Origin: Parcubacteria group bacterium
GTDB taxonomy: Bacteria; Patescibacteriota; Minisyncoccia; Moranbacterales; UBA11712
Assembly (NCBI GenBank): GCA_041659685.1
Contig: JBAZXV010000001.1
Location: 178,771-242,770, forward strand
DNA: 64,000 bases
Reading direction: 5' to 3'
Shown: positions 15,978 to 18,149 of the stretch, piece by piece
Position numbering within the stretch: the first letter of the stretch is position 1
Layout: every line of letters starts with the position of its first letter
Made by a program: the position numbers and the translations under genes
The notes under the pieces: generated by a model
What the model was told of the DNA's origin: nothing
What the model saw: the letters and a program-made list of their open reading frames with translations, nothing else
The model's database searches: none

Positions 15978-16232
15978 TTATTTATAAATAAATTTTGCGG
16001 CAATCAGCGCCCCTGCCAAAACAAGTTCCACCGTATTGGTAATAATCAGCGGCATTTCGTTGATCCCAAATGCATAAATTTGAAACAAAACCAATCCGAA
16101 AATATAAATTACATTCCAAAGAAGTGAAATGTCGGCGGTGGATTTTGTTTTCCAGGCTTTTGAGACCTGCGGCGCAAGCGAAACCGCGATTATGAATCCG
16201 GCGAGATAGCCCGTGAGTTGAATCGAGTTCAT
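15978..16232 (-). CDS. SemiSWEET / PQ-loop family small membrane transporter
   Basis: 84 aa with three predicted TM helices and a PQ motif (SLAPQVSKAW) in TM1. Confidence 0.6.
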   Translation of the reverse strand: MNSIQLTGYLAGFIIAVSLAPQVSKAWKTKSTADISLLWNVIYIFGLVLFQIYAFGINEMPLIITNTVELVLAGALIAAKFIYK

Positions 16233-16234
16233 TT

Positions 16235-16765
16235 TTATATTTTTAAATCAATAATTTCAGCTTTTTTTGTTGCGGTATCATAGAGAGCGACCGTGGCAGG
16301 CTGGATTCCTGTTTCTGCCATATATCCGATGAGGGATCCGGGGTTTACGACCAACGTTTTTCCTTTTTGTCCGATAAGCGGCTTGTGGGTATGGCCAAGA
16401 CACAAAACGTCAAACATCTGCGACTCTGTCAGACAAGCATTCATATTCTCATCGTCGCCATGGAAAACTCCGAAACGGATTCCTTCGATCGAAAATTCAA
16501 GGAAGCGGGACGACAAACTCAAATCCAAATCTTTCAACATCTCAATATTCTGCAATTGATAAAGATATTTCTGAATATCCGGATCGCCATTTCCCATAAC
16601 GCCCCTAATCGGGCATTTCAGCGCCAAATACGCCCTCAATGAGAATGGCGCGTCCCAATCGCCGCAATGAACGAGAAGGCTGATTTTTTCTTTGTTGAAA
16701 AATTCAATGGCCTTTTGAAGATGCCGCAAATTGTCATGCACGTCCGAAATTATGCCTATTTTCAT
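16235..16765 (-). CDS. YfcE/MJ0936-family metallophosphoesterase
   Basis: MKIGIISDVHDN, HCGDW, GNGD and GHTHKP motifs. Confidence 0.7.
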   Translation of the reverse strand: MKIGIISDVHDNLRHLQKAIEFFNKEKISLLVHCGDWDAPFSLRAYLALKCPIRGVMGNGDPDIQKYLYQLQNIEMLKDLDLSLSSRFLEFSIEGIRFGVFHGDDENMNACLTESQMFDVLCLGHTHKPLIGQKGKTLVVNPGSLIGYMAETGIQPATVALYDTATKKAEIIDLKI

Positions 16766-16794
16766 TTTTTTCTAAAATTAGATGTTAGTAAATA

Positions 16795-17184
16795 CTAGAT
16801 TTCCTGCAATAATTTCTCCAACTCGCATTCGGCGAAATTGACGGAGGCGTGGTCGAATTGGTTTTTTAAAAAAACGGAGGCTTGAAATCTCTTGAGAGCC
16901 GTTTTTATGAATTCTCTCAATGTGTCAATATTATCTGGATAATCGGCTCTTAGTAAAACAACAATCACACGCCCGATTAATTCCGTTTTCTTGAGGTATA
17001 CGCTGACGACAAGTTGGACCGCTTCTCCCTGCTTTTGATAGGGCATCAGTTCAAGAAAATCCTTATGTTTCTCCGCGACTATTTCAATCTGCTTCTTGAG
17101 AGGCAGGAATCCGAAGTCCAGAAAATCATCATTCTTCGGCCGGTCGCTTGTCAATTCAATTTCACCGATGAAATATTCGGACAT
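16795..17184 (-). CDS. Hypothetical protein (129 aa)
   Basis: ORF whose start overlaps the stop of the upstream kinase gene. No recognisable motif. Confidence 0.45.
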   Translation of the reverse strand: MSEYFIGEIELTSDRPKNDDFLDFGFLPLKKQIEIVAEKHKDFLELMPYQKQGEAVQLVVSVYLKKTELIGRVIVVLLRADYPDNIDTLREFIKTALKRFQASVFLKNQFDHASVNFAECELEKLLQEI

Positions 17185-17708
17185 TATTTTTTTAGCTTAC
17201 TCAATATCATCTCAGCAACTTTTTTGGGTGATAAATTGGTATTGTCTATCTTGATATTTTCGACAAATGGAATTTCTCCCCAGTGATGTTGGTCGCGTTT
17301 TAGAATTTTTATTGTGCTGATCTTTTTGTATTTCTTTCTTTCCGGGCTTTTGACTCGTTTCAGAAGTTCTTCTTGGGAGCAATCAATGTAGAAAAAGAAT
17401 ACTTTTCCGCCGTGCTTTTTGATAATCCTGACAATTTTCTTGATAAAATCGGGAGATTTTTTCGGACGGAAACCATATGTAAAAATCAAGTTCGGCACCT
17501 GGCCGCTTTTGGCGGCCGCTTCGAAAGCGCTCAGCATTATCTTTTTGTTGAGTTGGCTGTATTCGGGAGTTCCCCATTCAAAAAAAGTTTTTGCCAAATC
17601 AACGGAAAGGTGATTGTGGAAAAGCGTGAAGCCCGTCTTCTTCTTCAATTCTTTGGCGATAGTTAATTTTCCGACGGCCGGCTGGCCGTAAATGAAGATT
17701 AAATCCAT
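17184..17708 (-). CDS. P-loop NTPase, predicted kinase
   Basis: Walker A GQPAVGKLT within the first 15 residues. The size and layout resemble small nucleoside/nucleotide or zeta-like kinases. Confidence 0.55.
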   Translation of the reverse strand: MDLIFIYGQPAVGKLTIAKELKKKTGFTLFHNHLSVDLAKTFFEWGTPEYSQLNKKIMLSAFEAAAKSGQVPNLIFTYGFRPKKSPDFIKKIVRIIKKHGGKVFFFYIDCSQEELLKRVKSPERKKYKKISTIKILKRDQHHWGEIPFVENIKIDNTNLSPKKVAEMILSKLKK

Positions 17709-17711
17709 AAA

Positions 17712-18149
17712 CTATGCTTTGCTTCGTTCTTTGATAAAAGCCCTTATATCTTCCTTCATGCCCGGTTTTTCCATCATTTTCAAAGCTTCTTCCGCCGTGA
17801 CCCAGGCATAGCCCGAATGCTCCTCGGATACTATCACCTCTTCAGAATCAGTTTTGCACCAAAACATAATCCCTACAAGCTCATTTTCGGCGATTTTTTC
17901 GCCTCGAAAAATATGAAAAATAGAAATTGGTTTAACTATTTCCACTTCGAGTCCTGTTTCTTCCATAACTTCCCGCCTCAAACCGTCCTCAGGATCCTCG
18001 AATTGATGCAGGCGTCCGGTGGTGTATTCCCAAATTCCCGGCGAATAATCCTTTTTTCCGCTTCGTTTCAGCAAAAGAATTTTGCCGGTCGTTGAGTTTT
18101 CGACGATGGCGCCTGTCGCGACCAAAAATTTTCCGATTTTGTTTTCCAT
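17712..18149 (-). CDS. NUDIX hydrolase
   Basis: Nudix box GRLHQFEDPEDGLRREVMEETGLE. Confidence 0.75.
   Translation of the reverse strand: MENKIGKFLVATGAIVENSTTGKILLLKRSGKKDYSPGIWEYTTGRLHQFEDPEDGLRREVMEETGLEVEIVKPISIFHIFRGEKIAENELVGIMFWCKTDSEEVIVSEEHSGYAWVTAEEALKMMEKPGMKEDIRAFIKERSKA

What the first reader, a model, noticed from the sequence alone, without database searches (positions are those of the whole stretch)
15978..18149. Tightly overlapping five-gene operon: NUDIX hydrolase, P-loop kinase, hypothetical protein, metallophosphoesterase and SemiSWEET
Stop and start codons overlap (17712/17708 and 17184/17184), implying co-translation. The operon combines a sugar or small-solute uniporter with a nucleotide-diphosphate hydrolase, a small kinase and a phosphodiesterase. 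This could be a nucleoside or sugar-nucleotide salvage module, which is attractive for a reduced-genome organism, or it could be a kinase/NUDIX toxin-immunity or signalling pair.
Basis: inference. Interest (0 to 1): 0.5.

Follow-up and report, generated by a model that had tools for sequence, protein, structure and literature searches.

The report
Tight but evolutionarily fluid five-gene string
Five small genes in a Parcubacteria genome (a Nudix hydrolase, an uncharacterised P-loop kinase, an unknown 129-aa protein, a phosphodiesterase and a SemiSWEET transporter) are packed tightly enough to be one transcript, but close relatives swap most of them, so this is an ordinary variable gene string, not a dedicated five-part system.

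Summary
The five minus-strand ORFs exist at the stated coordinates, and the four family assignments hold. These are Nudix (PF00293, 3e-19), P-loop kinase fold, MJ0936/YfcE phosphodiesterase (PDB 2ahd, 8.5e-26) and SemiSWEET (PDB 9kax, 4e-11).

One claimed overlap is real: kinase/129-aa share a 1-nt TAATG overlap. The other is a 3-nt gap (TAG-ttt-ATG). The remaining junctions are 29 nt and 2 nt, and a strong hairpin follows the last gene.

The cluster sits in a slot between prfA-prmC and rpmE-rpsB-tsf in a Parcubacteria MAG. The contents of that slot turn over even among relatives whose kinase is 82-85% identical:
- The phosphodiesterase is found only in this window.
- Nudix is missing in one relative.
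- Other genes take the place of those lost: asparaginase-like, HAD, a TIM-barrel protein, an IS200 transposase and a PEP-utilizer.

The kinase belongs to a widespread uncurated family (at least 496 species of bacteria and archaea, plus plasmids). It had no conserved partner across 93 loci.

A weak nucleotide theme recurs near the kinase in Patescibacteria (Nudix, Ham1, UMPH-1 5'-nucleotidase). There is no support for a toxin-immunity or defence reading.

Verdict: a real, probably co-transcribed, ordinary gene string. The salvage-module idea is weakly supported at most, and only for Nudix plus kinase.

The parts
17712..18149 (-). Nudix hydrolase, 145 aa. First gene of the string. MutT/NudG/NudI-like nucleoside-triphosphate pyrophosphohydrolase type.
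   Evidence: PF00293 3.2e-19. The complete Nudix box G45-x5-E-x7-REVMEETG is read from the sequence. Best solved relatives are 3grn, a MutT-related protein (3.6e-10), 2rrk, CTP pyrophosphohydrolase (1e-9), and NudI. All NCBIfam equivalogs score far below cut-off, for example NudG at 50 bits against 156.
17184..17708 (-). Uncharacterised P-loop kinase-fold protein, 174 aa. It has Walker A GQPAVGKLT, an invariant N32-H33...D37 motif and lid residues R118/R124/K129.
   Evidence: AAA_18 4.3e-8. Family alignment A1 gives the invariant residues. The AF2 model has pLDDT 92.4. Foldseek against PDB returns only generic small-kinase folds at 13-20% identity: 2rhm, 4eun, 2bdt, TmrB, and shikimate, APS and adenylate kinases. 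The best PDB profile hit is PSTK at 2.5e-5, with D37 aligned to the Asp of PSTK's GSDLIR segment.
16795..17184 (-). 129-aa protein of unknown function. It belongs to a small family with a conserved GEIEL...ELMPYQK...VSVYL...GR-I-VL-R--YP pattern.
16235..16765 (-). MJ0936/YfcE-type metallophosphoesterase (phosphodiesterase), 176 aa.
   Evidence: Metallophos_2 3.2e-31. TIGR00040 YfcE family scores 88.4 bits against a cut-off of 56.25. PDB 2ahd/1s3l, MJ0936 phosphodiesterase, 8.5e-26. The metal-binding motifs DVHD, GDW, GNGD, FHGD and GHTH are all present in the translation.
15978..16232 (-). SemiSWEET (single PQ-loop, three-helix transporter subunit), 84 aa. Last gene of the string.
   Evidence: PQ-loop 2.3e-7 and MtN3_slv exactly at its cut-off. 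NF037968 SemiSWEET_2 scores 66.1 bits, below its cut-off of 80. Solved SemiSWEETs 9kax at 4.2e-11, then 4rng and 4qnc.
15948..15973 (.). 11-bp G+C-rich hairpin between SemiSWEET and a convergent 65-aa ORF. It is the likely transcript end for the string.
   Evidence: Terminator scan. RNA fold dG -21.9 kcal/mol, z = -4.1. The T-run lies only on the + strand side, so on the string's own strand it is a hairpin without a U-tract.
18150..18295 (-). 146-nt untranslated stretch upstream of Nudix. It carries an AGGA ribosome-binding-like motif 7-12 nt before the ATG and is the inferred promoter region.
   Evidence: Sequence. No sigma-70 consensus site was found here, so the promoter is inferred, not shown.

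Best explanation
This is a real, tightly packed and probably co-transcribed string of five small accessory-metabolism genes in a Parcubacteria genome. It occupies a recombination-prone slot between two conserved housekeeping blocks, prfA-prmC on one side and rpmE-rpsB-tsf-PSP1 on the other.

Inferred mechanism. Transcription starts upstream of the Nudix gene and ends at the hairpin after SemiSWEET. Translation is probably coupled across the near-zero junctions: Nudix to kinase, kinase to the 129-aa protein, and phosphodiesterase to SemiSWEET.

The products most likely act separately:
- A MutT/NudG-like Nudix enzyme that cleaves (d)NTPs or related nucleoside diphosphate derivatives.
- An ATP-dependent kinase of an uncurated family that phosphorylates a hydroxyl group of an unknown acceptor. 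Asp37 sits where the catalytic base sits in PSTK, T4 PNK and chloramphenicol-phosphotransferase-type kinases.
- An MJ0936-type phosphodiesterase.
- A SemiSWEET small-solute uniporter.

The shared transcript reflects genome compaction, not a co-adapted five-component pathway. Only the Nudix-kinase(-129 aa) core shows any evolutionary persistence.
For: Shown:
- ORFs, families and junctions, and the hairpin.
- Synteny of the flanks in three relatives: JGI 3300075153, L006 (RF1 70%, L31 73%, S2 47%, Tsf 50%, PSP1 44%) and L100 (RF1, kinase 85%, SemiSWEET start).

Slot contents differ between these genomes:
- Window: Nudix-kinase-129aa-MPE-SemiSWEET.
- JGI: Nudix-kinase-129aa-asparaginase-like-HAD-SemiSWEET.
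- L100: kinase-TIM-barrel-like-129aa (truncated)-IS200 transposase-PEP-utilizer-SemiSWEET, with no Nudix.
- L006: Nudix-UMPH-1-kinase-methyltransferase.
- L002: Nudix-kinase only, between relA/spoT and topA.

Other evidence:
- Kinase homologues at 52-60% identity have no Nudix neighbour.
- Over 93 kinase loci, clustering of neighbours finds no recurrent partner. The 75 adjacent same-strand neighbours fall into 91 Pfam families. The top family is PRAI with 5 members, which I read as lineage synteny: the only recurrent cluster lying next to the kinase has 5 loci, a Pyrinomonadaceae representative and a PRAI-like sequence.
- Distant members of the 129-aa family are not next to a kinase.
- The kinase family is patchy and mobile: at least 496 species of bacteria and archaea, 46 plasmids and one phage, and a solitary gene on the plasmids inspected.
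Against: - The Nudix-kinase junction is tight in all three close genomes that have both genes: a 3-nt gap in the window, a 10-nt overlap in JGI and a 1-nt gap in L002. The pair survived relocation to a different context in L002.
- A Nudix-domain gene recurs one gene upstream of the kinase in L006 and L032, next to UMPH-1 5'-nucleotidase and Ham1 ITPase. This hints at a nucleotide-related link that a 'no module' reading underplays.
- Co-transcription itself was not measured, and no promoter consensus was found upstream of Nudix.
- Only about ten informative close loci were available.
Confidence: 0.6

Rival explanations
1. A Nudix-kinase(-129 aa) core is a genuine nucleotide salvage or pool-sanitation module of Parcubacteria. 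In this reading the Nudix enzyme degrades non-canonical or surplus (d)NTPs to NMPs, and the kinase re-phosphorylates a nucleoside or nucleotide. Interchangeable phosphohydrolases (MPE, HAD, UMPH-1, Ham1) and an importer (SemiSWEET) plug into the core.
For: - Nudix-kinase adjacency with near-zero spacing in the window, JGI 3300075153 and L002, the last in a different context.
- L006 has Nudix-UMPH-1 pyrimidine 5'-nucleotidase (1.5e-67)-kinase. L032 has Ham1 (6.8e-47)-Nudix-194aa-kinase with overlapping stops and starts.
- The Nudix is closest to nucleoside-triphosphatases (NudG, NudI, CTP pyrophosphohydrolase).
- The kinase P-loop GxPxxGKxT resembles that of NMP kinases. This rests on established knowledge of adenylate kinase GxPGxGKGT, not on a test here.
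Against: - The Nudix genes of L006 and L032 match the window's Nudix only around the Nudix box or at 27% identity, so they are not clear orthologues.
- L100 (kinase 85% identical) has no Nudix in the same slot.
- Kinases at 52-60% identity lack a Nudix neighbour.
- Only 2 of 75 adjacent neighbours across the family are Nudix-domain proteins, and one of those is an IPP-isomerase fusion.
- By rough estimate, 2-3 independent Nudix-near-kinase events among about 25-28 Patescibacteria loci is only marginally above chance.
- No nucleoside or nucleotide kinase family model reaches its cut-off.
Confidence: 0.25
2. The kinase is an accessory small-molecule (xenobiotic or antibiotic-type) kinase carried as a horizontally mobile single gene. 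It landed in a variable slot, and its neighbours are irrelevant to its function.
For: - Patchy distribution across distant bacterial and archaeal phyla.
- Presence on 46 plasmids, where the three inspected copies are solitary genes. One sits next to a divergent MerR regulator and site-specific integrases.
- Fold neighbours include the tunicamycin-resistance protein TmrB and sugar and gluconate kinases.
- An IS200 transposase lies in the same slot in L100.
Against: - No resistance-family model is matched.
- The substrate is entirely untested.
- The kinase is retained at the same chromosomal slot from the window lineage to Moraniibacteriota at 49% identity, which looks like vertical inheritance there.
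- This rival overlaps the best explanation and does not exclude it.
Confidence: 0.1
3. Kinase/Nudix toxin-immunity, signalling or anti-phage defence pair. A variant of this rival is an RNA end-healing set, with a PNK-like kinase, a metallophosphoesterase and an RppH-like Nudix, as in bacterial Pnkp.
For: - PADLOC gives Nudix to candidate PDC-S07 (4.4e-16) and kinase to VakA (2.4e-5, full length).
- The Zeta_toxin Pfam model is touched at 0.0035.
- One 52%-identity homologue (L004) lies beside DruA-domain genes, a radical SAM gene and a transposase.
- The best PDB sequence relative, PSTK, acts on a tRNA-bound substrate.
Against: - Zeta_toxin scores 17.2 bits, below its cut-off of 22.3.
- The PDC-S07 hit is what any Nudix domain would give. 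The L002 Nudix gives it too.
- Defence-model hits among 75 neighbours are few. By count and E-value they match the three ABC_tran/AAA_21 ATPases; this is an inference. The ten largest neighbours hit nothing.
- The flanks are core housekeeping genes.
- The MPE is not retained with the kinase in any relative, which argues against a Pnkp-like set.
- RppH models score far below cut-off.
- No small antitoxin-like partner is conserved.
Confidence: 0.05

Closest known systems
House-cleaning Nudix nucleoside-triphosphatases (E. coli NudG, NudI and MutT; PDB 2rrk, 6dt3, 3grn)
   Same: Single-domain protein of about 145 aa with a complete Nudix box. These are the best sequence matches.
   Different: Scores are far below every NCBIfam equivalog cut-off (50 bits against 156 for NudG, 34 against 148 for MutT). 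Substrate specificity is therefore unassigned.
Asp-base P-loop kinases: PSTK (3a4l), KTI12, T4 PNK, chloramphenicol phosphotransferase, shikimate and gluconate kinases, TmrB, and the putative kinase 2rhm
   Same: Same fold (TM 0.55-0.71). There is a Walker A lysine, and an invariant Asp about 23 residues later aligns with the Asp of PSTK's GSDLIR segment. That this Asp is PSTK's catalytic base comes from my own knowledge. Lid arginines are present.
   Different: Only 13-20% identity. No family model reaches its cut-off. The family has its own invariant FHNH-x3-D signature and no characterised member. It lacks PSTK's C-terminal tRNA-binding domain, at 174 aa against about 260.
MJ0936 / YfcE metallophosphoesterases
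   Same: Clear family member: TIGR00040 above cut-off and 8.5e-26 to the MJ0936 structure. All metal-ligand motifs are present.
   Different: The physiological substrate is unknown even for the characterised members (my own knowledge). The gene is not kept in this slot in relatives.
Bacterial SemiSWEET transporters (9kax, 4rng, 4qnc, 4x5m)
   Same: 84 aa, a single PQ-loop and three hydrophobic helices. It matches solved SemiSWEETs at 4e-11.
   Different: It scores below the NCBIfam SemiSWEET_2 cut-off (66 against 80). The transported solute is unknown.
Bacterial Pnkp (P-loop kinase + calcineurin-type phosphoesterase) RNA-repair enzymes
   Same: The same two enzyme classes lie side by side, plus a Nudix that could act on RNA 5' ends.
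   Different: The genes are separate, there is no ligase or Hen1 partner, and the MPE is not co-conserved with the kinase in any relative. This is a resemblance only.

Membership tests
Nudix hydrolase superfamily (PF00293) | Nudix box GX5EX7REUXEEXGU and a Pfam score above the gathering threshold | tested here: met
   The box GRLHQFEDPEDGLRREVMEETGL passes the strict pattern. PF00293 scores 69.7 bits against 21.1.
MutT / NudG / RppH equivalogs (NCBIfam) | Score at or above the curated equivalog cut-off | tested here: not met
   NudG 50.1 against 156, MutT 34 against 148, RppH models 15-22 against 116-259.
P-loop NTPase kinase fold | Walker A motif with lysine, and a Rossmann-like alpha/beta core with a lid | tested here: met
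   G8-x4-G13-K14 is invariant in 42 sequences. The AF2 model has pLDDT 92 and matches small kinases with probability 1.0.
   adk TIGR01351 scores 13.7 against 168 and aden_kin_iso1 14.3 against 284. No shikimate kinase model appears in the list. Fold similarity is at superfamily level only.
Zeta toxin (PF06414) | Pfam score at or above the gathering threshold, and a cognate epsilon-type antitoxin next door | tested here: not met
   17.2 bits against 22.3. No conserved small partner is seen across relatives.
YfcE/MJ0936 metallophosphoesterase | TIGR00040 above cut-off, and the five metal-binding motifs | tested here: met
   88.4 bits against 56.25. The motifs DVHD, GDW, GNGD, FHGD and GHTH are in the translation. 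2ahd at 8.5e-26.
SemiSWEET | A subunit of about 80-100 aa with one PQ-loop/MtN3 repeat (three transmembrane helices) | tested here: met
   PQ-loop 30.9 against 22, and MtN3_slv 23.7 exactly at its cut-off of 23.7. Solved SemiSWEETs at 4e-11. Three hydrophobic segments were read by eye. The NCBIfam SemiSWEET_2 subfamily cut-off is not reached, at 66.1 against 80.
Conserved operon / functional gene module (five genes) | The same gene set is co-localised in relatives beyond the closest strains | tested here: not met
   The MPE occurs only in the window. Slot contents differ in JGI 3300075153, L100, L002 and L006. There is no recurrent partner over 93 loci.
Conserved gene pair (Nudix + kinase) | Adjacency of orthologues retained across lineages and contexts | tested here: inconclusive
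   Adjacent in the window, JGI and L002. A Nudix-domain gene lies one gene away in L006 and L032 but is not clearly orthologous. The pair is absent in L100, L086, L099, L003 and L004.
Known anti-phage defence systems (PADLOC) | Significant hits to all components of a defined system within one locus | tested here: not met
   The only hits are Nudix to the single-gene candidate PDC-S07 and a weak VakA hit at 2.4e-5. The other three proteins give no hit or only a marginal one.
Single transcription unit | One promoter, no internal terminator, and one mRNA | not testable with these tools
   Only spacing and a terminal hairpin are available. No transcript data exist.

The most novel reading that the evidence does not exclude
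The roughly 175-aa P-loop protein is the founding example of an uncurated, widely but patchily distributed kinase family. Its signature is GxPAVGKLT...FHNH-x3-D...R118/R124/K129, and it occurs in at least 496 bacterial and archaeal species and on plasmids. In this reading the family has a new substrate class. In Parcubacteria it would work with the upstream Nudix enzyme, and perhaps the 129-aa ELMPYQ-motif protein, as a previously undescribed nucleotide salvage or sanitation step in organisms that cannot make nucleotides de novo.
Probability: 0.15. Interest if true: 0.45.

Novelty: new member of a known kind. Interest (0 to 1): 0.2.

Why it matters
As it stands this matters little. It is a routine example of dense, co-oriented gene packing in a reduced genome. 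It also shows that tight spacing alone does not indicate a functional module.

Two by-products may be useful:
1. A well-defined, structurally confident P-loop kinase family with no characterised member and no dedicated Pfam or NCBIfam model. It is present in hundreds of species.
2. A small orphan family of about 130-aa proteins with a strongly conserved ELMPYQ motif and no fold match.

If the kinase proved to be a salvage enzyme coupled to Nudix, it would add a piece to the poorly understood nucleotide economy of Patescibacteria.

Tried and rejected
- Five-gene conserved module. Rejected by comparing ten informative loci.
- tblastn of the window's Nudix, 129-aa, MPE and SemiSWEET proteins against 93 kinase loci. 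Only L002 gave an orthologue-level Nudix hit. L035 is an MFS-IPP-isomerase fusion, and two MPE hits lie more than 2 kb away.
- Neighbour clustering and bulk Pfam scan of adjacent genes. No recurrent partner was found.
- Defence reading. The PADLOC hits are generic. A literature search for 'VakA' gave nothing relevant.
- A literature search for SemiSWEET in Patescibacteria returned no papers.
- Assigning the kinase by structure. Only superfamily-level matches came back.
- The weak Cas2 Pfam touch of the 129-aa protein (E 0.052) was dismissed as noise.
- The L032 194-aa gene, which sits between its Nudix and kinase, is not homologous to the 129-aa protein.
- The metagenome scan with the kinase produced only 8 loci and no close relative with usable flanks.
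- The promoter-like site at 16776-16749 in the 29-nt gap was rejected as a promoter for the MPE. Its -10 element lies inside the MPE coding sequence, and site counts do not exceed shuffles.
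Full report
**Observation**

The window comes from a Parcubacteria-group MAG. The 129-aa and kinase proteins are identical to NCBI entries labelled 'Parcubacteria group bacterium', on a 291-kb contig. An independent Logan assembly, L001, carries the same five genes.

| Gene | Coordinates | Length | Main evidence |
|---|---|---|---|
| Nudix | 17712-18149 | 145 aa | PF00293 3e-19; complete Nudix box |
| P-loop protein | 17184-17708 | 174 aa | AAA_18 4e-8 |
| Unknown protein | 16795-17184 | 129 aa | no family in Pfam, NCBIfam, PADLOC or PHROGs |
| MJ0936/YfcE metallophosphoesterase | 16235-16765 | 176 aa | TIGR00040 88 bits against cut-off 56; PDB 2ahd 8.5e-26 |
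| SemiSWEET | 15978-16232 | 84 aa | PQ-loop above cut-off; solved SemiSWEETs 4e-11 |

Reading the junctions corrects one detail. Nudix and kinase are separated by 3 nt (TAG ttt ATG), so they do not overlap. The kinase stop and the 129-aa start do share one base (TAATG). The other two gaps are 29 nt and 2 nt.

In this window the median same-strand gap is about 47 nt, and 20% of gaps are <=5 nt. The string is therefore tighter than average but not unique; the window has co-oriented runs of 10-13 genes.

A strong hairpin (dG -21.9 kcal/mol, z = -4.1) follows SemiSWEET. The promoter and terminator scans of 15600-19400 found no more sites than shuffled sequence, and no terminator-like site lies inside the five genes. 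Co-transcription is therefore likely but inferred.

**The kinase**

An alignment of 42 homologues (A1) shows invariant G8, A11, G13 and K14 (P-loop GxPAVGKLT). It also shows invariant N32, H33 and D37 (FHNH-x3-D), T77, R118, R124 and K129.

The AF2 model is confident, with pLDDT 92.4. Foldseek against PDB finds only generic small-kinase folds at 13-20% identity:
- the putative kinase 2rhm;
- sugar and gluconate-type kinases 4eun and 2bdt;
- TmrB;
- shikimate, APS and adenylate kinases.

The best profile-to-PDB hit is PSTK at 2.5e-5. D37 aligns there with the Asp of PSTK's GSDLIR segment, which from my own knowledge is its catalytic base.

No curated family model reaches its cut-off. Source annotations are mutually inconsistent: shikimate kinase, dephospho-CoA kinase, Kti12, RapZ and NMP kinase all appear. 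The protein is a kinase-fold enzyme of unknown substrate. It is not a shikimate or adenylate kinase.

The family is widespread and patchy:
- at least 496 species representatives, spanning Patescibacteria, DPANN, Bathyarchaeia, Acidobacteriota, Deinococcota and Proteobacteria;
- 46 plasmids and one Enterococcus phage;
- a solitary gene on the three plasmids inspected.

**The 129-aa protein**

Only 6 homologues appear among 5.8 billion proteins. A profile search finds 36 representatives among 1.84 billion. They share a GEIEL...LPN...ELMPYQK-GE...VSVYL...GR-I-VL-R--YP pattern.

More distant members (41-47% identity) are not next to a kinase. L094 lies beside a PNPOx-like gene, and L095 lies after a gene whose C-terminal fragment looks like dnaK by eye.

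| Locus | Kinase identity | Arrangement |
|---|---|---|
| Window | 100% | prfA-prmC \| Nudix-kinase-129aa-MPE-SemiSWEET \| rpmE-rpsB-tsf-PSP1 |
| JGI 3300075153 | 83% | same flanks; Nudix-kinase-129aa-asparaginase-like-HAD-SemiSWEET |
| L100 | 85% | prfA \| kinase (no Nudix)-243-aa TIM-barrel-like-129aa truncated at residue 74-IS200 Y1 transposase-PEP-utilizer-SemiSWEET start |
| L002 | 82% | Nudix-kinase only, between relA/spoT and topA |
| L086 / L099 / L003 / L004 | 60 / 58 / 55 / 52% | kinase without Nudix |
| L006 (Moraniibacteriota) | 49% | flanks syntenic with the window (RF1 70%, L31 73%, S2, Tsf, PSP1); Nudix-UMPH-1 pyrimidine 5'-nucleotidase-kinase-methyltransferase |
| L032 | 49% | Ham1 ITPase-Nudix-194aa-kinase-GNAT |

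The Nudix proteins of L006 and L032 resemble the window's only around the Nudix box, or at 27% identity.

Across 93 kinase loci, all-against-all clustering of neighbours found no recurrent partner. The 75 directly adjacent same-strand neighbours fall into 91 Pfam families:
- PRAI, 5 members. I read this as lineage synteny: the only recurrent cluster lying next to the kinase has 5 loci, a Pyrinomonadaceae representative and a PRAI-like sequence.
- Thioredoxin, 3 members.
- Nudix, 2 members. One of these is an MFS-IPP-isomerase fusion.

**Interpretation**

The slot between prfA-prmC and rpmE is a variable region whose contents turn over quickly. The kinase is retained from the window's lineage to Moraniibacteriota. 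The other genes behave as follows:
- SemiSWEET sits at the rpmE end in three close genomes.
- The 129-aa gene is present in three.
- Nudix is present in three close genomes, plus a Nudix-domain gene in L006.
- The MPE occurs only in the window.

This argues against a co-adapted five-gene pathway. It favours a compact transcript of independently acting accessory enzymes (confidence about 0.6).

The main rival (about 0.25) is a looser Nudix-kinase nucleotide salvage or sanitation core with interchangeable phosphohydrolases. Points in its favour:
- the tight Nudix-kinase junctions in three genomes;
- the survival of the pair in a different context in L002;
- the recurrence of nucleotide-directed enzymes (Ham1, UMPH-1, HAD) around the kinase in Patescibacteria.

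The numbers are small and the Nudix genes are not clearly orthologous, so this rival remains suggestive only.

An 'accessory xenobiotic kinase' reading (about 0.1) fits the patchy, plasmid-borne, solitary pattern.

Toxin-immunity, defence and RNA-repair readings (about 0.05 together) have only weak generic hits in their favour:
- PDC-S07 is hit by any Nudix domain.
- VakA scores 2.4e-5.
- Zeta_toxin is below its cut-off.
- The flanks are housekeeping genes.
- The MPE is not co-conserved with the kinase.

**Novelty and verdict**

Four of the five proteins are members of known superfamilies. The arrangement is an ordinary dense gene string. The kinase family and the 129-aa family are uncurated and uncharacterised, which is modestly useful but not surprising for candidate-phyla genomes.

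Interest is 0.2. Novelty: new member of a known kind.

Noticed in passing
window 18150-19250: About 1.1 kb lies between the Nudix gene and the divergent prfA. It holds only two small minus-strand ORFs with no family match: 18296-18523 (75 aa) and 18571-18804 (77 aa, with CxxC and further Cys residues). G+C is higher here, at 46.7% for 18001-20000 against about 41-42% in the flanks. The closest relative has only about 500 nt and a single 87-aa ORF in this position. The 75-aa ORF is also present in the independent assembly L001.
   Followed up: partly
window 58396-60963 (minus strand); G+C peak at 58001-60000: The window's highest G+C is here: 53.6% against about 42% on average. The peak coincides with an 855-aa ORF with no Pfam hit and an adjacent 202-aa ORF that also has none. 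They lie next to a YkuD L,D-transpeptidase and a weak Wzz-like protein.
   Followed up: partly
L100 1553-2497: In a relative whose kinase is 85% identical, the 129-aa gene is cut short after residue 74. It is followed directly by an IS200-type Y1 transposase gene, which suggests that an insertion disrupted it.
   Followed up: partly
L004 4467-8254: A 52%-identity kinase homologue lies in a mobile-looking context: two DruA-domain ORFs, an unknown 166-aa ORF, then the kinase, a radical SAM protein and, further on, an rve-family transposase.
   Followed up: no
L101 (Bacillus cereus plasmid NZ_CP085503.1) 2966-5932: Plasmid-borne homologues of the kinase (33-37% identity, annotated 'AAA family ATPase') are solitary genes. 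In this 12-kb plasmid the gene sits between a divergent MerR regulator and a site-specific integrase. In total, 46 of 72,556 plasmids and one Enterococcus phage carry a homologue.
   Followed up: partly
window 15729-15926 (+ strand): A 65-aa Cys-containing ORF with no Pfam family was called as a gene in the independent Logan assembly. It converges on SemiSWEET and shares the 15948-15973 hairpin, which has a T-run only on this ORF's strand.
   Followed up: no
P0148 (relative of the 129-aa protein, 209 aa): One member of the 129-aa family continues into a C-terminal stretch that, by eye, looks like an aldehyde:ferredoxin-oxidoreductase fragment. It could be a fusion, a frameshift or a gene-calling artefact.
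   Followed up: no
L096 1-168: Upstream of a 46%-identity homologue of the 129-aa protein, the contig starts with the last 55 residues of a protein. By eye its C-terminus (…YQWFEIEELPNV…) looks like the end of a Nudix protein. The fragment is too short to test.
   Followed up: no
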